DNA from: Escherichia coli | GTDB lineage: Bacteria; Pseudomonadota; Gammaproteobacteria; Enterobacterales; Enterobacteriaceae | Direction: 5' to 3' (one strand) | Length of the DNA: 64,000 bases | Assembly (NCBI RefSeq): GCF_024700885.2 | Contig: NZ_CP117016.1 | Part shown: positions 57,034 through 64,000 of the stretch, one piece after another | How the letters are laid out: each line of letters opens with the position of its first letter | Position numbering within the stretch: the first letter of the stretch is position 1 | The notes under the pieces: model-generated | Database searches by the model: none | Seen by the model: the letters and a program-made list of their open reading frames with translations, nothing else | What the model was told of the DNA's origin: nothing | Translations under genes and position numbers: made by a program

Positions 57034-58890
57034 ATGGCATTTAAACACTATGATGTTGTCAGGGCGGCGTCGCCGTCAGATCTTGCGGAAAAGCTGACAC
57101 ATAAAATGAAAGAGGGCTGGCAGCCGTTTGGTAGTCCGGTGGCCATAACCCCTTATACCCTGATGCAGGCGATTGCAGCAGAAGGTGATGTGGTCGTCAG
57201 TGGTGCAACTGAGCCGGAGTGGTACTACGTCATCGTACTGGCCGGGCAATCCAATGCCATGGCTTACGGTGAAGGGCTTCCGCTTCCGGATTCTTACGAT
57301 GCGCCCCACCCACGCATTAAGCAACTGGCCCGTCGCAACACAGTGACTCCCGGTGGTAAAGCATGCGCATTTAACGACATCATTCCGGCAGACCACTGCC
57401 TGCATGATGTTCAGGATATGAGCGCACTGAATCATCCGAAGGCAGACCTGAGCAAAGGGCAGTACGGCTGTGTCGGCCAGGGCTTACATATTGCCAAAAA
57501 ACTGCTTCCGTATATCCCGAATAACGCGGGGATCCTGCTGGTACCATGCTGTCGTGGTGGTTCGGCATTCACCCAGGGCGCGGAGGGGACATTCAGTGCG
57601 GACACGGGGGCCAGCCAGGATTCGGCACGCTGGGGTGTGGGTAAACCGTTATATCAGGACCTGATCGCACGCACCAAAGCGGCATTACAGAAGAACCCGA
57701 AAAATGTGTTGCTGGCGGTGTGCTGGATGCAGGGCGAATTTGACATGAGCGCTGCCACCTACGCACAGCAACCGGACCTGTTCACGGCCATGCTGAAGCA
57801 GTTCCGTACTGACCTTTCCGGATTTAACGCGCAGTGCCATGGCGGCAGTGCTGCAGTTGTACCGTGGATTTGTGGCGACACGACGTATTACTGGAAAAAC
57901 ACATACGGCACACAGTATGACTCCGTCTACGGCGCGTACAAAAACAGGGAGAGCGACAACGTTTTCTTTGTGCCGTTCATGACCGACGGTAACGGCAACA
58001 ACACGCCCACCAACTTACCGGCAGAAGACCCGGATATTGCTGATGCAGGTTATTACGGCGCGCAATCCCGTAGTAATGGTAATTGGGTATCGTCAAATCG
58101 TCCGACACATTTCAGTTCATGGGCGCGCAGGGGCATTATTTCGGATCGCCTGGCAACCGCTATTCTGAACGCAGTTGGTCGAACCAGCGCCTTCATCAGC
58201 GGTACCGCACCGGAGATTAAACCCTCGCCCGGCGGCGACACGCCATCGGGGCCGTCTGATGGTGACACATCCGTTCGTACAGTCTCCCTGCTGCCGACAG
58301 CCGGAGAGGCTGCTGCGCAGGGCTGGACCATCACCGGCGGCAGTGTTGCGCTGGAAGATGGTGTGTTTAAGGTTACCAAGCAGAGCAATAAAACCTGGTC
58401 CCTGATGCATCCGGTGGATGACGCGGTCTCCCTGCTGACACGGGGTGGCAGACTGAGCTGTAAGTTTCGACTGTCAGGCGCACTGACCAACAACCAGTTC
58501 GGTCTGGGAATTTATCTGTATACCGATGTAGCGTTACCTGACGTCGTGGCGATGACCGGGACTGGTAACCCGTTCCTGATGTCGTTCTTCACCCAGACCA
58601 CAGACGGCAAACTGAATCTGATGCATCACAAGAAAGCCGGAAACACAAAGTTGGGCGAGTTCGGGAATTACAGTAACGACTGGCAGACGCTGGAGCTGGT
58701 GTTCACCGCCGGCAGTGCCACGGTTACTCCGAAACTGAATGGAGTGGCTGGCCCGGCATTCCAGGTCATAAAAGACAGTCTGACACTGGGGCTGAATGCG
58801 CTGACGCTGACGGATATTACCAAAAATGCAGCGTATGGCGTTGAGATAGAAAGTCTGGTGCTGGAGATAAATGCACCGGCATCATCATAA
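57034..58890 (+). CDS. NanS-p-like esterase (N-terminal DUF1737-like + SGNH/sialate O-acetylesterase-like domain)
   Basis: ORF 57019..58890; ATG at 57034 with GGTGGA Shine-Dalgarno; N-terminus MAFKHYDVVRAASPSDLAEKLTHKMKEGWQPFGSPVA; same position as the large esterase downstream of stx in Stx phages. Confidence 0.6.
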   Translation: MAFKHYDVVRAASPSDLAEKLTHKMKEGWQPFGSPVAITPYTLMQAIAAEGDVVVSGATEPEWYYVIVLAGQSNAMAYGEGLPLPDSYDAPHPRIKQLARRNTVTPGGKACAFNDIIPADHCLHDVQDMSALNHPKADLSKGQYGCVGQGLHIAKKLLPYIPNNAGILLVPCCRGGSAFTQGAEGTFSADTGASQDSARWGVGKPLYQDLIARTKAALQKNPKNVLLAVCWMQGEFDMSAATYAQQPDLFTAMLKQFRTDLSGFNAQCHGGSAAVVPWICGDTTYYWKNTYGTQYDSVYGAYKNRESDNVFFVPFMTDGNGNNTPTNLPAEDPDIADAGYYGAQSRSNGNWVSSNRPTHFSSWARRGIISDRLATAILNAVGRTSAFISGTAPEIKPSPGGDTPSGPSDGDTSVRTVSLLPTAGEAAAQGWTITGGSVALEDGVFKVTKQSNKTWSLMHPVDDAVSLLTRGGRLSCKFRLSGALTNNQFGLGIYLYTDVALPDVVAMTGTGNPFLMSFFTQTTDGKLNLMHHKKAGNTKLGEFGNYSNDWQTLELVFTAGSATVTPKLNGVAGPAFQVIKDSLTLGLNALTLTDITKNAAYGVEIESLVLEINAPASS

Positions 58891-59040
58891 AAAGTGAGCC
58901 AGTCAAATGGAAGGTATCGTTAAACTCACCGGTAGTGTCAGTGGGTCGTCTGAGATGCCTGCATGAGTTATCAGAGCCATCAGTACTTAACTGGTGGCTT
59001 TTTTTATTGTTGTCAGCTTCCGGATAACGGGAGACGGGGT

Positions 59041-59256
59041 ATGTACCAGATGGAAAAAATCACAACAGGTGTGTCATACACCACGTCAGCGGTGGGAACG
59101 GGCTACTGGTTCCTGCAGTTGCTGGACAGGGTTTCCCCGTCTCAGTGGGCGGCAATAGGCGTGCTGGGGAGTCTGCTGTTTGGGCTGCTGACATATCTGA
59201 CTAACCTGTATTTCAAAATCAGAGAGGACCGTCGTAAGGCTGCACGGGGAGAGTAA
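59041..59256 (+). CDS. phage-21-type pinholin (class II holin, dual-start motif)
   Basis: ORF 58963..59256; [71 protein letters not shown] (71 aa), two Met starts three codons apart. Confidence 0.8.
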
Positions 59257-59302
59257 TTCAATGACTCAAAACTATGAACTGATTGTGGGTAATGACTCCA
59301 AC

Positions 59303-59806
59303 TTATTGATAGTGTTTTATGTTCAGATAATGCCCGATGACTTTGTCATGCAGCTCCACCGATTTTGAGAACGACAGCGACTTCCGTCCCAGCCGTGCCA
59401 GGTGCTGCCTCAGATTCAGGTTATGCCGCTCAATTCGCTGCGTATATCGCTTGCTGATTACGTGCAGCTTTCCCTTCAGGCGGGATTCATACAGCGGCCA
59501 GCCATCCGTCATCCATATCACCACGTCAAAGGGTGACAGCAGGCTCATAAGACGCCCCAGCGTCGCCATAGTGCGTTCACCGAATACGTGCGCAACAACC
59601 GTCTTCCGGAGCCTGTCATACGCGTAAAACAGCCAGCGCTGGCGCGATTTAGCCCCGACGTATCCCCACTGTTCGTCCATTTCCGCGCAGACGATGACGT
59701 CACTGCCCGGCTGTATGCGCGAGGTTACCGACTGCGGCCTGAGTTTTTTAAATGGCGGAAAATCGTGTTGAGGCCAACGCCCATAATGCGGGCGGTTGCC
59801 CGGCAT
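59303..59806 (-). CDS. insB: IS1 transposase InsB
   Basis: 167-aa [53 protein letters not shown]... Confidence 0.95.
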
Positions 59807-60000
59807 CCAACGCCATTCATGGCCATATCAATGATTTTCTGGTGCGTACCGGGTTGAGAAGCGGTGTAAGTGAACTGCAGTTGCCATGTTTTACGGCAGT
59901 GAGAGCAGAGATAGCGCTGATGTCCGGCGGTGCTTTTGCCGTTACGCACCACCCCGTCAGTAGCTGAACAGGAGGGACAGCTGATAGAAACAGAAGCCAC
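59725..60000 (-). CDS. insA: IS1 protein InsA
   Basis: 91-aa [46 protein letters not shown]... Confidence 0.95.
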
Positions 60001-60451
60001 TGGAGCACCTCAAAAACACCATCATACACTAAATCAGTAAGTTGGCAGCATCACCCTGATTGTGAAAGGGATCCGCAATTTTGAGAATAAAGTTACGGTA
60101 ACTTTAGCGTTACGGGACAAAAAACGCTTTGACGGTGAAATTTTTGACCTGGACATCTCGCTGGACCGTGTTGAAGGTGCCACGCTGGAGTTTTATGAGG
60201 CAGCAGCCAGAAGGAGCATCAGACAGGTCTTCCTGGATGTTGCTGCCGGGTTATGTGAAGGGGATGAGCAGTCGCCGGAAAAGCGCCCCGTAATTTTAGA
60301 GGCGCAGAATGTATGGATAACCTACAAAGGAAAGCTACCGGGAATAATTACTGGTTCTCTGAAGACTCCTCCGGAATCACAACCTTAAGTCACTGACCGG
60401 AACAGATAAACCTGTCCGTGGGCAGAAACCGATAAATCCTGATAAATATCC

Positions 60452-60985
60452 ATGAACACCAAAATCAAATACGGCCTGTCGGCTGCCGTTCTGGCGCTGA
60501 TTGCCGCTGGTGCGCCTGCGCCTGACATTCTCGACCAGTTTCTGGATGAAAAGGAAGGTAACCACACCACGGCATACCGTGATGGCGCGGGTATCTGGAC
60601 CATCTGCCGCGGTGCCATCCTGGTGGATGGCAAACCTGTCGTTCCTGGCATGAAGTTGTCGAAGGAAAAATGCGACCGGGTTAACGCCATTGAGCGTGAT
60701 AAGGCGCTGGCATGGGTGGAGAAAAACATCAGAGTGCCATTGAGTGAACCCCAGAAAGCGGGGATCGCGTCATTCTGTCCGTACAACATTGGCCCCGGTA
60801 AGTGTTTTCCGTCGACGTTTTATAAACGAATTAATGCAGGTGATCGCAGGGGAGCGTGTGAGGCGATTCGCTGGTGGATTAAGGACGGTGGCAGGGACTG
60901 CCGTATTCGCTCAAATAACTGTTACGGTCAGGTATCCCGTCGTGACCAGGAGAGCGCGCTGGCGTGCTGGGGAATCGACAGATAA
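60452..60985 (+). CDS. SAR (signal-anchor-release) endolysin, phage-21 R-type lysozyme
   Basis: 177-aa ORF with N-terminal hydrophobic SAR segment (GLSAAVLALIAAGAPAP) and lysozyme catalytic region (E...D...T). Confidence 0.85.
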   Translation: MNTKIKYGLSAAVLALIAAGAPAPDILDQFLDEKEGNHTTAYRDGAGIWTICRGAILVDGKPVVPGMKLSKEKCDRVNAIERDKALAWVEKNIRVPLSEPQKAGIASFCPYNIGPGKCFPSTFYKRINAGDRRGACEAIRWWIKDGGRDCRIRSNNCYGQVSRRDQESALACWGIDR

Positions 60986-61076
60986 GCAGAATATTTTGCT
61001 AATAAATGACGTTGGCCAAGGCGGATGGATAACACGAAATCCTGCGAACTGGCAAAATGTAAGTGAATAAAAGTAA

Positions 61077-61115
61077 AAACCCCGTTTGTTGGCAGCAAGC
61101 GGGGTTTTGTTTTTA
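61077..61115 (+). terminator. terminator-like hairpin downstream of the endolysin
   Basis: Stem aaccccg/cggggtt with 15-nt loop followed by TTGTTTTT. Confidence 0.5.
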
Positions 61116-61179
61116 TGGCAGTAAGCTATGGGAGGCTGCCTTGATTGATTTTAGCAAACTGATTAGGGAGTTGCGACTC

Positions 61180-61275
61180 ATGATTAGTCAATTACCAAAC
61201 TGGAAATTTTTGCTGGTCTGGAGCATCCCTTTTTTATGGGTAGTATCCCAGTTAATTGTGGCAATTAAGGGGTAG
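61180..61275 (+). CDS. candidate small membrane peptide (31 aa)
   Basis: AGGGAG then ATG; MISQLPNWKFLLVWSIPFLWVVSQLIVAIKG. Confidence 0.3.
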   Translation: MISQLPNWKFLLVWSIPFLWVVSQLIVAIKG

Positions 61276-61277
61276 CT

Positions 61278-61409
61278 ATGTCAGACAAACTCATAACGCC
61301 GGCAAAGGTCCTGTGTGTGATTGTCGGTATTTCATTTTCACTAATGCTGGTTGCTCTTTTTCTGTCCTTCGCCTGGGTGATGTTGTCTTCGTCGGGGCTG
61401 CTGGGGTGA
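61278..61409 (+). CDS. candidate small membrane peptide (43 aa)
   Basis: AAGGGG then ATG; MSDKLITPAKVLCVIVGISFSLMLVALFLSFAWVMLSSSGLLG. Confidence 0.3.
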   Translation: MSDKLITPAKVLCVIVGISFSLMLVALFLSFAWVMLSSSGLLG

Positions 61410-61528
61410 CAGTGACTGATGACATCAGCAGAGCGCTGGCTTTTGCTATTAAGTGGGTGGCTGTTGGTATTGCTGTGTCTCCGATGCTGTATGGGCTGGC
61501 AAAACTGGTCATTGCGCTGAAATCGTGA
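61406..61528 (+). CDS. candidate small membrane peptide (40 aa)
   Basis: GTG start overlapping the previous stop (GTGA); VTVTDDISRALAFAIKWVAVGIAVSPMLYGLAKLVIALKS; similar to the next peptide. Confidence 0.3.
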   Translation: MTVTDDISRALAFAIKWVAVGIAVSPMLYGLAKLVIALKS

Positions 61529-61539
61529 ACTTTAAAAAG

Positions 61540-61626
61540 ATGAGTGCTGAACTTATTCGGGCAATGGCATTTGCCATTCGTATTGTGGCCATTGCTGTTC
61601 TGGTCTGGGCAATCCGTTGGTGGTGA
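61540..61626 (+). CDS. candidate small membrane peptide (28 aa)
   Basis: [28 protein letters not shown]; stop 1 nt before the Rz start. Confidence 0.3.
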
Positions 61627-61627
61627 T

Positions 61628-62122
61628 ATGAACCGTGTTCTGTGTGTGGTGATTATTGTCCTGCTGGTAGCCTGTGGTGTGCTTAGTCTGGGGCTGAATC
61701 ATTACCGCGATAACGCCATCACCTACAAAGCGCAGCGCGATAAAAAAGTCAGTGAGCTGAAACTGGCGAATGCCACTATTACTGACATGCAGCAGCGCCA
61801 GCGAGATGTCGCTGCGCTTGATGCCAGATACACGAAGGAATTAGCCGATGCGAGAGCTGAAAATGAAACTCTGCGCGCTGATGTTGCCGCTGGTCGTAAG
61901 CGCCTGCGGGTCAACGCCACCTGCCCCGGTACCGTGCGTGAAGCCACCGGCACCTCCAGCGTGGATAATGCAACCGGCCCCCGACTGGCAGACACCGCTG
62001 AACGGGATTATTTCATCCTCAGAGAACGGTTGATGACAATGCAGAAGCAGCTGGAAGGGGCGCAGGAATATATCCGCACTCAGTGCACTAAGCTGGCTTT
62101 TTATTATCCGGAGGATACATGA
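61628..62122 (+). CDS. i-spanin Rz
   Basis: ORF 61544..62122; Met at 61628 gives 164 aa with N-terminal TM helix and coiled-coil periplasmic domain; embedded Rz1 frame. Confidence 0.8.
61863..62033 (+). CDS. o-spanin Rz1 (lipoprotein embedded in Rz in the +1 frame)
   Basis: [15 protein letters not shown] lipobox followed by a proline-rich mature peptide, entirely inside Rz. Confidence 0.8.
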
Positions 62123-62343
62123 AGAAATTACGGGTAACCGTAGAACCTTTTCAGGGAACAATTCCGTTCCGTATTTTGCAGCGTGGTCGTGTTCTTGTTG
62201 AAGGTTCGTTCAGTGGTAAATGTACGCAATTACACTCCCGGACCTTTCAGGTGAATGCCACGAATGAAGAGCTAACCGTGGAGTGTACGATGAATGCCGC
62301 TAAATGCCGCATGGTATCCGCTGCATTACAGCCAGTGTGTTGA
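62119..62343 (+). CDS. hypothetical protein translationally coupled to Rz
   Basis: 74-aa ORF, ATG overlaps the Rz stop (ATGA), GGAGGA Shine-Dalgarno. Confidence 0.45.
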
Positions 62344-62541
62344 GCGACCTTATTATCCATGCGCGGTATTGTCGCCGTATTCCTGCATTAACAGAGACCG
62401 CAGCCCGACAGGGAGACTCCTCTGCGCGAGTGTGCGGGGATAATCAAAAACGATACACACCGGGGTTTACCGCGTTAACGGAGCGCGGCGTTGTCCCCTC
62501 ATAGTCGCCTGTCCGGTGCGATGGTGGAAGAAACCGAACGT

Positions 62542-62742
62542 TCATTTCTCGTTATTTGTCATGCTGGCCGGGCGCAGATGCGTTGCATCTGTTGCCAGCC
62601 TTCTCCTGCAGGCTTCAATAACCCACGCTGAAAAGTTACCGGACCCTTTATGCTCAAGGGCGATGTTGATCTGTTCAATTATGTGATTGGGGAAACGGAT
62701 ATTGCGGGTTGTGGTTCTGCGGGTACGGTTTTTCGATGACAT
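62542..62742 (-). CDS. small ribbon-helix-helix-like DNA-binding protein (YlcI-like)
   Basis: ORF 62542..62802; Met at 62742 with AAGGAAA Shine-Dalgarno; MSSKNRTRRTTTRNIRFPNHIIEQINIALEHKGSGNFSAWVIEACRRRL. Confidence 0.5.
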   Translation of the reverse strand: MSSKNRTRRTTTRNIRFPNHIIEQINIALEHKGSGNFSAWVIEACRRRLATDATHLRPASMTNNEK

Positions 62743-62783
62743 ATTTATTTCCTTTACTGATTGCCATATGACGGGGATTTTAC

Positions 62784-63149
62784 ATGGCTGAGCTTCGTAC
62801 ACTCCAGAGCAGAATCAAAACACTGAATACCCGACGGGTGAATATTCTGAAGGGTGAACAGCGTCGTGTCAGTGGCAGTGCACGTGTTTCCCTCAAGCGT
62901 CATATCTGGCTCAGGGACGCCGGGCAGTGCCGTCTCTGTGGTCGTGTGGTTGACCTCTGTGACAGTGAACTCGATCACCGAATTGCACTTCAGTTCGGTG
63001 GTGGTAATGAGGAGACGAATCTCTGGACGCTCTGTACCGAATGCCATCGACAAAAGTCTGCTCGTGAAGCGGCGAGTGGTATGCCGGACCCGACGCTGCC
63101 GGAGGTGTCCGGAGGTAGTGGCAGAGAGGACGACATCATCGGACTGTAA
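62784..63149 (+). CDS. HNH endonuclease (terminase-associated)
   Basis: 121-aa ORF with HNH zinc-binding motif (CRLCGRVV...DHRIALQFGG...NLWTLCTECHRQK) directly upstream of the terminase. Confidence 0.8.
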   Translation: MAELRTLQSRIKTLNTRRVNILKGEQRRVSGSARVSLKRHIWLRDAGQCRLCGRVVDLCDSELDHRIALQFGGGNEETNLWTLCTECHRQKSAREAASGMPDPTLPEVSGGSGREDDIIGL

Positions 63150-63242
63150 CCCAACCCGGGGGGGGGTATCATCCGGCGTAAAAAACGATCGCTTTGGACA
63201 CCGCGCCCCCTCTCACGCAGAGAAAAAATTCCCGTTTCAGGG

Positions 63243-63366
63243 CAGTTAACATGTTAACTGGCTGCCCGGGCATTTTTGCGGTTTTTATCTTTATTATTCA
63301 GTTTGTTGTGCGGAAAAAATGTTAACAGGCTTTTTCAGCAAATGTTAACCAGGCAGCAGTTAACAT
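63243..63366. repeat. GTTAACAT repeat cluster (18-bp perfect palindrome plus three more copies), candidate cos/terminase-binding region
   Basis: cagttaacatgttaactg (63243-63260), atgttaac at 63319-63326 and 63342-63349, inverted gttaacat at 63359-63366, with an A/T-rich spacer. Confidence 0.5.
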
Positions 63367-63440
63367 TTGCGGCATGAGACGCCGGGAAAAATGGGCTGAA
63401 CCATACCCGGCTGAGTGCGTTCTGGACCCGGGAGGAGGCT

Positions 63441-64000
63441 GTGCTGACAACGCAAAAACGAAAATTTGCGCTGGCGCTCATGTCCGGGAAAAACAAAACA
63501 GCGTCAGCCATTGCCGCCGGTTATTCGGCGAAGACCGCCAGGGTTAAAGGCTCGCAGCTGGCAAAAGATCCGGAGGTGCTTGCGTTTATAGCCCGTAAAC
63601 AATGCGAGACGGTGGAGGTGGATGAGGTTCCTGTTTACCGGCAGAAAAAATCAGAGCAGGAGGATAAACCCCGTCGCCGTGAGGCGGCTGCAATACCACA
63701 GCCGGACGAAAACAATCCGGAGATGCCACCGTCCGCGGTGATGTCTCCTGGTATTGAATATATGGAGGATGGTCTTCCCGATCCGGTGAAAGCCATGGGG
63801 CGGATCCTGGTGGAAAACCTCTGCATTGATCCGAAACTGGCACTGGATGCGGCCTGGCGTCTGGCGCAGTTCACGCACCATAAAAAAGGGGATACCGGGA
63901 AAAAATCGGCAAAAGGTGATGCCGCGAAAAAAGCGGCTAACCGTTTTGCGGTGCCACCGCCACCCCGACTGGTGGTGAATAACGATAATGAGGGCAACGG
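63441..64000 (+). CDS. terminase small subunit (5' partial; runs off the window end)
   Basis: GTG at 63441 preceded by GGAGGAGG; the frame is open to position 64000 (VLTTQKRKFALALMSGKNKTASAIAAGYSAKTARVKGSQLAKDPEV...); not in the ORF track because no stop lies within the window. Confidence 0.7.
   Translation, partial: MLTTQKRKFALALMSGKNKTASAIAAGYSAKTARVKGSQLAKDPEVLAFIARKQCETVEVDEVPVYRQKKSEQEDKPRRREAAAIPQPDENNPEMPPSAVMSPGIEYMEDGLPDPVKAMGRILVENLCIDPKLALDAAWRLAQFTHHKKGDTGKKSAKGDAAKKAANRFAVPPPPRLVVNNDNEGN

What the first reader, a model, noticed from the sequence alone, without database searches (positions are those of the whole stretch)
61180..61626. Four tandem small hydrophobic ORFs between the SAR endolysin and Rz, two of them paralogous
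In canonical lambdoid lysis cassettes R is followed directly by Rz/Rz1. Here a terminator-like hairpin follows R and then four short ORFs (31, 43, 40, 28 aa), each with a predicted TM helix, are packed head-to-tail with start/stop overlaps. The third and fourth share a clear motif (SRALAFAIKWVAVGIAV vs [17 protein letters not shown]), indicating duplication. They could be lysis-timing modulators, membrane toxins or a decayed gene; none is in the ORF track because all are under the length cutoff.
Basis: seen in the sequence. Interest (0 to 1): 0.55.

Follow-up and report, generated by a model that had tools for sequence, protein, structure and literature searches.

The report
Tiny membrane-protein genes between endolysin and spanin
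Between the wall-degrading enzyme gene and the outer-membrane-disrupting genes of an E. coli prophage sit four real, conserved genes for very small membrane proteins; databases list them only as hypothetical proteins and their role is untested.

Summary
A strong terminator hairpin (61076-61108) follows the SAR endolysin R. Four same-strand small ORFs then fill the gap up to Rz (61628). Each ORF has one hydrophobic helix.

They are genes, not frameshift debris.
- Each matches a PHROG family of unknown function.
- Each shows purifying selection only in its own frame (pN/pS 0.30-0.45 against 0.67-2.8).
- ORF1, ORF2 and ORF3 each occur intact on their own in other prophages, in other orders and combinations.

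ORF3 and ORF4 are true paralogues, and natural chimeras of the two exist. ORF1 is mis-delimited: its family predicts 44 aa from TTG 61141 with a GGGAGG Shine-Dalgarno site, not 31 aa.

The cassettes have no detectable promoter and lie behind a conserved hairpin. They occur after four unrelated endolysin types and before several spanin types. More distant relatives of ORF1 and ORF3 occur in tail, head and accessory-gene regions. Expression is therefore probably late only.

My leading inference is non-essential inner-membrane modulators of lysis (about 0.4). Other late accessory functions are nearly as likely. RefSeq and PHROGs already list these proteins as hypothetical. I found no functional literature.

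The parts
60452..60985 (+). SAR-type lysozyme R (context; upstream boundary of the interval)
   Evidence: The 177-aa ORF is annotated 'lysozyme' in an identical RefSeq locus. It is 93% identical to VT2-Sakai R. Stx-phage endolysins of this type are described as predicted SAR endolysins in PMC8136144.
61076..61108 (+). Intrinsic-terminator-like hairpin that leads the small-ORF cassette
   Evidence: The terminator scan finds it. Its dG is -24.2 kcal/mol, z -5.2. A homologous hairpin precedes small-ORF cassettes after four endolysin families and in distant phages. Four stem pairs show compensatory changes.
61141..61275 (+). ORF1: 44-aa membrane protein from TTG 61141 (SD GGGAGG at 61130-61135).
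   Evidence: Homologues begin M(I/V)DFSKLIRELRLMIKQLPNWKF from a GTG behind AAGGGAGAA. The 44-aa form matches phrog_6632 over positions 1-43 of 45 with E 1e-13, against 6e-5 for the 31-aa form. pN/pS is 0.45 in frame against 0.92 and 1.17 out of frame. AlphaFold2 gives helix 4-17, a break at P19 and helix 20-43.
61278..61409 (+). ORF2: 43-aa single-pass membrane protein (SD AAGGGG at 61267-61272)
   Evidence: It matches phrog_4906 with E 5e-21. There are 202 clusters at 90% identity, 43-49 aa, all with names are E. coli or Shigella. pN/pS is 0.37 against 0.86 and 1.48, with no in-frame stops in 41 distinct DNAs. The Sakai Sp5 homologue is ECs_5707, lying between ant and Rz.
61406..61528 (+). 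ORF3: 38-40-aa membrane protein. The start is GTG 61406 (GTGA overlap with the ORF2 stop) or GTG 61412 (GGGG five bases upstream). It is an N-terminally shortened copy of a 48-aa family.
   Evidence: It matches phrog_1115, phrog_3246 and phrog_4493 with E 6e-25 to 5e-17. The canonical form MKNGLE..APVTD(D/E)I..AFAIKWVAVGIAVSPxLYGLAKLIIALKS occurs in E. coli, E. marmotae and Salmonella. pN/pS is 0.30 against 0.67 and 2.81.
61525..61626 (+). ORF4: 28 aa from ATG 61540, or 33 aa from GTG 61525 (GTGA overlap with the ORF3 stop). It is a short paralogue of ORF3. Its last codons, TGGTGGTGA, form the Shine-Dalgarno region of Rz.
   Evidence: It matches phrog_4493 at E 4e-6 and phrog_3246 at E 9e-5, the same families as ORF3. 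The shuffle test gives 0 of 2000. Chimeras P0235 and P0240 exist. pN/pS is 0.35 against 0.67 and 1.91, from only 7 distinct DNAs.
61628..62122 (+). Rz i-spanin, with the Rz1 o-spanin embedded at 61848-62033 (context; downstream boundary)
   Evidence: Seen in the ORF list. Annotated 'lysis protein' in the identical RefSeq locus.

Best explanation
The interval carries four separate genes for very small inner-membrane proteins, from three unrelated families:
- ORF1: 44 aa, with a cytoplasmic amphipathic helix followed by a C-terminal membrane anchor.
- ORF2: 43 aa.
- ORF3 and ORF4: paralogues of 38-40 aa and 28-33 aa.

They are portable cassettes without a detectable promoter, parked in the endolysin-spanin junction of a lambdoid late operon.

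The cassette starts with a conserved intrinsic-terminator hairpin. Each ORF has its own Shine-Dalgarno site or a GTGA start/stop overlap with the ORF before it. The last codons of ORF4 provide the ribosome-binding site of Rz.

Because nothing promoter-like lies between the hairpin and the ORFs, they should be transcribed only when Q-modified RNA polymerase reads through the terminator. That would place them late in lytic growth, together with holin, endolysin and spanin.

The peptides would insert into the inner membrane. Most likely they act as dispensable modulators of the lysis step, tuning when the holin triggers or the membrane depolarises, probably by helix-helix packing through their conserved small-xxx-small motifs.

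What is shown: gene status, family membership, paralogy, modular mobility, the hairpin, and the lack of a detectable promoter.

What is inferred: late-only expression, membrane insertion, and the lysis-modulating role. My confidence that these are genes is about 0.9. My confidence in the lysis-modulator role is about 0.4.
For: Gene status:
- All four ORFs hit PHROG families.
- pN/pS is lowest in the proposed frame for all four.
- The ORF2 and ORF3 families keep length and stop position across 56-95% identity.
- Four or more TM-type ORFs are rare in shuffles, 2 of 2000.

Modularity:
- Among about 265 loci the ORFs recombine freely. Examples are R>3>2>Rz (78 loci), R>1>2>3>4>Rz (67), GH108>3>2>lipoprotein (32), R>Ant>2>Rz (21), R>1>2>Rz, R>3>Rz and GH19>1>spanin.

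Link to lysis:
- In Enterobacteriaceae the cassettes sit between the endolysin and the spanin. The endolysin can be SAR lysozyme, GH108, M15 peptidase or GH19. The spanin can be a PF03245 Rz of three types, DUF2570/LysC, or phrog_1026/1275.

Late-only expression:
- A strong terminator lies directly upstream.
- No + strand promoter-like site was found in 58800-62500.
- Only about 32 nt separate the hairpin from the ORF1 start.

From my own knowledge, not tested here: the phage-encoded small inner-membrane proteins with late-only expression and a known role that I can recall are lysis regulators, namely lambda S107, phage 21 S71, P1 LydB, P2 LysA, T4 RI and Mu gp25. The Mu gp25 releasin (PMC9239132) shows that non-holin membrane proteins encoded near an endolysin gene can control lysis.
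Against: - There is no homology to any characterised lysis protein, and no Pfam, NCBIfam or PADLOC match.
- The junction also accepts soluble cargo: Ant/Bro-N antirepressors and a 93-aa protein. It may simply be a permissive insertion site.
- Relatives of ORF3 and ORF1 occur between tail genes I and J, after a tail-fibre assembly gene, among baseplate and head genes, and beside HicAB, ParE and RelB modules.
- Lambda and K-12 Qin lack these ORFs, so they are not needed for lysis.
- The window's ORF3 lacks the canonical ATG and N-terminus, and ORF4 has no clear Shine-Dalgarno site, so translation of those two copies is the least certain.
- I have no expression data. The ORF2 homologue in Sakai was not found in the Ribo-seq supplements of PMC5597208. 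That study covered optimal growth conditions, under which I would expect prophage late genes to be silent, so it is only weak negative evidence.
Confidence: 0.42

Rival explanations
1. The peptides are accessory cargo unrelated to lysis. The endolysin-spanin junction would be just one of several permissive insertion sites in late operons. Expressed late or at a low level, the peptides would act on some other membrane or cytoplasmic target. Possible roles include excluding superinfecting phage DNA, blocking a host defence or stress pathway, or inhibiting a host transporter or division protein. Small bacterial membrane proteins such as MgrB, AcrZ and SidA act on larger proteins in this way (from my own knowledge).
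For: - ORF1 and ORF3 relatives occur in tail, baseplate and head operons, and next to HicAB, ParE/RelB, Bro-N and DUF2513 cargo, in phages of Neisseria, Pasteurellaceae and Burkholderiaceae.
- The same junction carries Ant antirepressors.
- The cytoplasmic helix of ORF1 (SKLIRELRxMxExLPxWKF) is conserved across Gamma- and Betaproteobacterial phages. This suggests a conserved partner rather than a particular holin.
- The cassettes occur with unrelated holins and endolysins.
Against: - The known exclusion and defence morons I can recall (from my own knowledge) are expressed in the lysogen or early. Here a strong terminator precedes the cassette and no promoter is detectable.
- There is no PADLOC match.
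- In the roughly 250 enterobacterial loci examined, almost all copies lie in the lysis cassette. That sample is biased towards close relatives.
Confidence: 0.33
2. The peptides are membrane-depolarising toxins of the type I toxin kind (like Hok, TisB or Ldr). They would kill or arrest the cell when expressed, either as an addiction or abortive-infection device or as a crude holin trigger.
For: They have the size (28-44 aa) and the single hydrophobic helix typical of type I toxins. One weak promoter-like site lies on the minus strand at 61284-61255 and could give an antisense RNA.
Against: - There are no Rfam hits for any antitoxin RNA or toxin mRNA element.
- There are no Pfam, NCBIfam or PADLOC toxin-family hits.
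- The scan found 2 promoter-like sites where shuffles give 3.4, so the minus-strand site is within chance.
- The genes are co-oriented and translationally coupled inside an operon and have no promoter of their own.
Confidence: 0.1
3. The ORFs are not functional as proteins. They would be recombination debris, or mere upstream reading frames that ribosomes translate only to deliver themselves to Rz. Their hydrophobic character would be a by-product of base composition.
For: - The window's ORF3 and ORF4 lack ATG starts and strong Shine-Dalgarno sites.
- The ORF4 and ORF1b C-terminal RWW codons coincide with the ribosome-binding site of the next gene.
- ORF coverage of the interval is not in itself very unusual: 6% of shuffles reach it.
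Against: - Purifying selection is frame-specific in all four ORFs.
- Length and stop position are conserved across divergent homologues.
- ORF1, ORF2 and ORF3 occur independently in contexts with no Rz downstream.
- No related locus shows a single longer gene.
Confidence: 0.07

Closest known systems
PHROG families phrog_6632 (ORF1), phrog_4906 (ORF2), phrog_1115/4493/3246 (ORF3, ORF4), and RefSeq hypothetical proteins WP_001280933, WP_042004856, WP_032140280, WP_001043230; Sakai ECs_5707
   Same: Direct sequence membership. The window's block is 100% identical to annotated E. coli genomes.
   Different: These entries carry no function. The ORF1 start is inconsistent in the records: 70 aa, 47 aa, or unannotated, as in H-19B and SPN3UB.
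Phage P2 LysA and antiholins such as lambda S107, phage 21 S71 and P1 LydB (from my own knowledge)
   Same: They are non-essential inner-membrane proteins encoded in the lysis cassette that shift lysis timing. P2 lysA also lies between the endolysin and the spanin genes.
   Different: There is no sequence similarity. LysA has several membrane helices, and the S-type antiholins are alternative-start products of the holin gene. The ORFs here are 28-44 aa with one helix and are not tied to one holin family.
Phage Mu gp25 releasin (DUF2730; PMC9239132)
   Same: It is a small non-holin membrane protein encoded within a few genes of a SAR endolysin, and it controls lysis.
   Different: gp25 is 99 aa, N-out/C-in, with a 73-aa acidic cytoplasmic domain, and belongs to DUF2730. 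The ORFs here have no DUF2730 match. ORF1 has the opposite layout, with an N-terminal cytoplasmic helix and a C-terminal anchor. The cassettes also follow an endolysin with no hydrophobic N-terminal segment (GH108) and an M15 peptidase.
Lambdoid 'morons', such as HK97 gp15 or lambda bor and lom (from my own knowledge)
   Same: They are small accessory genes inserted between conserved late genes, bounded by hairpin terminators and shuffled among phages. Relatives of ORF1 and ORF3 sit at tail and head junctions, as morons do.
   Different: Classic morons carry their own promoter and a 3' terminator and are expressed in the lysogen. Here the hairpin is 5' of the gene, no promoter is detectable, and the genes are translationally coupled into the operon.
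Type I toxins and small bacterial membrane regulators (Hok, TisB, Ldr; MgrB, AcrZ) (from my own knowledge)
   Same: They are single-helix peptides under 50 aa that act in the inner membrane.
   Different: There is no homology and no antisense RNA element. The setting here is a phage late operon.

Membership tests
PHROG 6632 / 4906 / 1115-4493-3246 (phage protein families of unknown function) | Significant full-length match to the family profile | tested here: met
   ORF1 (44 aa): E 1.4e-13 over profile positions 1-43 of 45. ORF2: E 5e-21. ORF3: E 6e-25. ORF4: E 4e-6.
Holin / antiholin | Small membrane protein with at least one TMD, encoded next to the endolysin | tested here: met
   Each ORF has one hydrophobic helix. 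All lie between R and Rz.
Holin / antiholin | Membership of a described holin family | tested here: not met
   No Pfam or NCBIfam match. All PHROG matches are to families of 'unknown function'. The cassette already has a class II holin at 59041-59256.
Holin / antiholin | Forms lethal membrane lesions at a programmed time, or delays the holin | not testable with these tools
   Needs induction and lysis-curve experiments.
Mu-type releasin (DUF2730) | DUF2730 domain with an N-terminal TMD (N-out, C-in) and a long acidic cytoplasmic tail | tested here: not met
   No DUF2730 hit. The ORFs are 28-44 aa, and the soluble part of ORF1 is N-terminal and net basic. The definition comes from PMC9239132.
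Spanin (i-spanin / o-spanin / u-spanin) | A periplasmic domain long enough to bridge the envelope, or a lipobox | tested here: not met
   The flanks outside the helix are at most 23 residues, and none of the four ORFs has a lipobox. Rz/Rz1 follow separately. The ORF2 similarity to the Rz TMD is marginal, p about 0.02.
Type I toxin-antitoxin | Toxin peptide with a cis- or trans-encoded antisense RNA and its own promoter | tested here: not met
   No Rfam family up to E = 1. No + strand promoter was found, and the single minus-strand site is within chance expectation.
Moron (promoter-gene-terminator unit expressed from the prophage) | Own sigma-70 promoter upstream and a terminator downstream of the gene | tested here: not met
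   The hairpin is upstream, no promoter-like site is detected, and only about 32 nt separate the hairpin from the ORF1 start. One relative, L093, is flanked by hairpins on both sides.
Moron (mobility criterion) | The same gene is found between different conserved genes in different phages | tested here: met
   
Anti-phage defence system component | Match to a PADLOC model | tested here: not met
   No hit up to E = 1.

The most novel reading that the evidence does not exclude
The hairpin-led cassettes may be a previously unrecognised portable unit of phage late operons. Each unit would comprise a conserved structured 5' element, a gene for a very small membrane protein, and a built-in ribosome-binding site for the next gene. 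It could therefore insert between essential genes without polar effects.

On this reading the four families would be general lysis-timing or membrane-state modulators that work with any holin or endolysin type. The common ORF2 family of Shiga-toxin phages would be included, so these peptides could influence the timing of toxin release.
Probability: 0.15. Interest if true: 0.7.

Novelty: new variant of a known kind. Interest (0 to 1): 0.45.

Why it matters
The complete four-ORF block is present in 586 of 5426 complete E. coli genomes, and parts of it in 2077.

The ORF2 family sits between ant and Rz in Stx1 and Stx2 phages, including VT2-Sakai (ECs_5707). An ORF1-type gene lies unannotated between R and Rz in the classic phage H-19B and in Salmonella phage SPN3UB.

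If these peptides tune lysis, they would add a layer of control to a well-studied lysis pathway, and could affect phage burst timing and the timing of Shiga toxin release.

If they do something else, they are still a compact, experimentally tractable set of conserved phage membrane proteins under 50 aa with no assigned function.

There is also a practical annotation result: ORF1-family genes start at GTG or TTG and are routinely missed or mis-delimited.

Tried and rejected
1. Frameshift debris of one longer gene. Rejected: no such gene appears in any of about 265 related loci, and each ORF recurs intact.
2. A non-coding RNA. Rfam gave nothing up to E = 1 over 58000-64000.
3. ORF2 as a duplicated Rz membrane anchor. 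The shared 'VLCV' gives only p about 0.02 in shuffles, which is not convincing.
4. The alternative-frame ORF 61419-61520 (33 aa). That frame has pN/pS 0.67 and stops in 12 of 37 homologues, so it is not conserved.
5. Known families. Pfam, NCBIfam and PADLOC gave no significant hits. The weak DUF3930 hit for ORF2 (E 0.01-0.035) was disregarded.
6. Literature. Searches by accession number, by locus tag and by topic found nothing on these ORFs. The Stx-phage lysis-cassette survey PMC8136144 does not mention them in the passages I read. The Sakai Ribo-seq supplements do not list the ECs_1214-1215 interval.
7. K-12 Qin as a source of named homologues. There rrrQ abuts rzpQ with no small ORFs between them.
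8. Single-peptide queries. They were too short for the search for related loci and the search for homologous proteins, so I used alignments instead.
9. Fold search. I did not run one, because a two-helix 44-aa model carries no fold information.

Full report
**Where this is.** The window is the late region of an E. coli lambdoid prophage. Positions 59009-60985 match NZ_AP022177 exactly apart from an IS1 insertion, and the R-Rz interval 60986-61640 is 100% identical to the same record. The lysis cassette reads as follows:
- class II holin, 59041-59256
- a YdfR-family gene split by IS1
- lysozyme R, 60452-60985, which is 93% identical to VT2-Sakai R, a type described as a predicted SAR endolysin (PMC8136144)
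- the interval in question
- Rz, 61628-62122, with Rz1 embedded

**Observation.** A 15-pair hairpin with a T-run lies at 61076-61108. Its dG is -24.2 kcal/mol and its z-score is -5.2. Four + strand ORFs then tile the interval:
- ORF1: 61180-61275, 31 aa from ATG
- ORF2: 61278-61409, 43 aa
- ORF3: 61406-61528, 40 aa from GTG, sharing GTGA with the ORF2 stop
- ORF4: 61540-61626, 28 aa
- Rz starts one base later.

Each ORF has a strongly hydrophobic 19-residue window. Four or more such ORFs arise in 2 of 2000 dinucleotide shuffles.

**They are genes.**
- All four hit PHROG families of unknown function.
- I collected about 265 related loci from phage records, IMG/VR and assemblies. In these, pooled pN/pS is lowest in the proposed frame for every ORF: 0.45, 0.37, 0.30 and 0.35, against 0.67-2.8 in the shifted frames.
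- The ORF2 family has 202 clusters at 90% identity, of 43-49 aa, in E. coli and Shigella. It keeps its length and its C-terminal SGL(V/L)G-stop down to 56% identity.
- The ORF3 family extends to E. marmotae and Salmonella with a nearly invariant core, AFAIKWVAVGIAVSPxLYGLAKLIIALKS.
- No locus shows one long gene in place of the small ORFs.

**Corrections to the anatomy.**
- ORF1 homologues in Salmonella, Citrobacter, Klebsiella, Enterobacter, Providencia, Cronobacter and phage H-19B are 44-45 aa. They begin M(I/V/F)DFSKLIRELR... from a GTG behind AAGGGAGAA.
- In the window the equivalent start is TTG 61141, five bases after GGGAGG (61130-61135).
- The 44-aa form matches phrog_6632 end to end at E 1e-13. 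The 31-aa form reaches only 6e-5.
- AlphaFold2 gives an N-terminal helix (residues 4-17), a break at Pro19 and a second helix (20-43), with pLDDT 80. The first helix is amphipathic.
- The window's ORF3 is an N-terminally shortened copy of a 48-aa protein (MKNGLELKAPVTDD...). It must use GTG 61406 or GTG 61412.
- ORF4 may start at GTG 61525. That codon aligns with the ATG of a relative and overlaps the ORF3 stop.
- Translation of these two copies is therefore the least certain point.

**Paralogy.**
- ORF4 hits the same PHROGs as ORF3.
- The pairwise score is 51, against 23 +/- 4.5 in shuffles, reached by 0 of 2000.
- Natural chimeras exist in both directions. P0235 and P0240 join an ORF3 N-terminus to an ORF4 C-terminus. 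P0217 and P0221 join an ORF4-like N-terminus to an ORF3 C-terminus.
- No other pair of the four ORFs is convincingly related. The best of the other pairs, ORF1 against ORF3, reaches only p about 0.01.

**Modularity and context.** The ORFs behave as independent cassettes:
- R>3>2>Rz: 78 loci
- R>1>2>3>4>Rz: 67
- GH108 endolysin>3>2>60-aa lipoprotein: 32
- R>Ant>2>Rz, in Stx phages: 21
- also R>1>2>Rz, R>3>Rz in Salmonella, GH19>1>spanin in Enterobacter, and M15>93-aa protein>1>Rz or DUF2570/LysC

The cassettes thus follow four unrelated endolysin types and precede several spanin types. K-12 Qin has R abutting Rz. In Sakai Sp5 the ORF2 homologue is annotated as ECs_5707. In H-19B and SPN3UB the ORF1-type gene is unannotated.

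Outside this group the picture changes.
- An ORF3 relative lies between tail genes I and J in S. enterica subsp. salamae.
- An exhaustive profile search finds 56 ORF1-family representatives at 50% identity, reaching Pasteurellaceae, Neisseria and Burkholderiaceae.
- These sit after tail gene I, in head or baseplate operons, or beside HicAB, ParE/RelB, Bro-N and DUF2513 genes.

**The hairpin belongs to the cassette.** A homologous hairpin, AAAGC(G/A)AAA(A/G)CCCCG...CGGGG(C/T)TTT, often followed by the leader CTGTTTCTGCACCTTGA.GAAGGCAAGGGAGAA, precedes the first small ORF after every endolysin type, and in the tail, baseplate and Burkholderiaceae contexts too. Four stem pairs show compensatory changes.

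No + strand promoter-like site was found, and only about 32 nt separate the hairpin from the ORF1 start. The 3' end of ORF4, and of many ORF1-family members, is ...RWW-stop (TGGTGGTGA). This doubles as the Shine-Dalgarno region of whatever gene follows. The unit therefore looks built to sit inside an operon without polar effects.

**Mechanism.**
- Shown: the ORFs are real, conserved, portable genes without a detectable promoter, encoding single-helix peptides behind a terminator.
- Inferred: they are transcribed only by antiterminated late transcription, they insert into the inner membrane, and they act there late in infection.
- I rank a dispensable lysis-modulating role first, at about 0.4. 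The reasons are the late-only logic, the shared compartment with holin, SAR endolysin and i-spanin, the strong positional association in enterobacterial phages, and the precedents of P2 LysA and the antiholins (my own knowledge) and of the Mu releasin.
- The conserved G-x-x-x-S motifs of ORF2 and ORF3 suggest helix-helix packing. This is inference only.
- A non-lysis accessory role is nearly as likely, at about 0.33, because of the non-lysis locations of relatives and the mixed cargo of the junction.
- Type I-toxin-like action (0.1) and non-function (0.07) are less likely.

**Known or new.**
- The proteins are already in RefSeq and PHROGs as hypothetical or unknown-function entries.
- They match no Pfam, NCBIfam or PADLOC family.
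- I found no paper that treats them.
- They fail the defining tests for holin families, releasin, spanins, type I toxins and classic morons, while resembling accessory lysis-cassette membrane proteins in position.
- I rate the finding a new variant of a known kind, with moderate interest (0.45).

Noticed in passing
window 59288-60055 (flanks 59279-59287 and 60056-60064): An IS1 copy (insA and insB on the minus strand) is inserted in the YdfR-family gene between the holin and R, with a 9-bp target duplication CTGATTGTG. The intact gene is present in the otherwise identical locus L001.
   Followed up: yes
window 61001-61059: A short stretch just after the R stop is highly polymorphic, with about 23 variable positions in roughly 60 nt and two main alleles among 22 distinct sequences. 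The 450-nt ORF block has only about 13 variable positions. Parts of the stretch are palindromic (TTGGCCAA here, CGTGGCGCCACG in SPN3UB), and conserved flanks GAATATTTTGCT..AAATG and GATAACACGAAATCC surround it. It could be a structured element or a protein-binding site.
   Followed up: partly
L094 3279-3461; also L097-L137 and others: In cassettes with GH108 or M15 endolysins and holin_8/holin_3_7, the small ORFs are followed by a 60-aa lipoprotein (lipobox LVGC, phrog_7528, unknown function). It sits where the spanin would be, and no Rz/Rz1 was seen in the 6-kb loci.
   Followed up: partly
L273 2426-2460, 3130-3164, 4656-4690: A Burkholderiaceae prophage carries three copies of the same hairpin-plus-leader, each in front of a small gene and interleaved with toxin-antitoxin pairs. 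Two of the copies are identical for more than 100 nt. This looks like an array of hairpin-led cassettes.
   Followed up: partly
L068 (ORF4 region): One IMG/VR contig has the first 26 residues of ORF4 fused in frame to a gpJ-like tail-protein segment. It may be a recombinant or an assembly chimera linking the lysis junction with the I-J tail junction, where ORF3 relatives also occur.
   Followed up: no
window 62119-62343: A 74-aa ORF overlaps the Rz stop (ATGA). It is conserved in Salmonella (L089 4104-4313) and matches phrog_2571 (unknown function). It is annotated as a hypothetical protein.
   Followed up: partly
L266 (H-19B) 1498-1632; L267 (SPN3UB) 1801-1938: Phage H-19B and Salmonella phage SPN3UB carry an unannotated 45-aa ORF1-family gene with a GTG start between R and Rz. 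The H-19B Rz annotation (573 nt) appears to start too far upstream: it begins at locus 1634, two bases after the small ORF's stop and four bases before the ATG seen in the sequence at 1638.
   Followed up: partly
window 61284-61255 (minus strand): A promoter-like site (CTGACA-18-CACAAT with an upstream TG) lies antisense to the ORF1/ORF2 junction. It is within chance expectation, since 2 sites were found where shuffles give 3.4.
   Followed up: no
window 62784-63149 and 63430 onward: An HNH endonuclease gene lies immediately upstream of the terminase small-subunit gene, with a YlcI/YnfO (DUF3950) gene on the opposite strand at about 62542-62742. This is a common layout and has no evident connection to the finding.
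   Followed up: no
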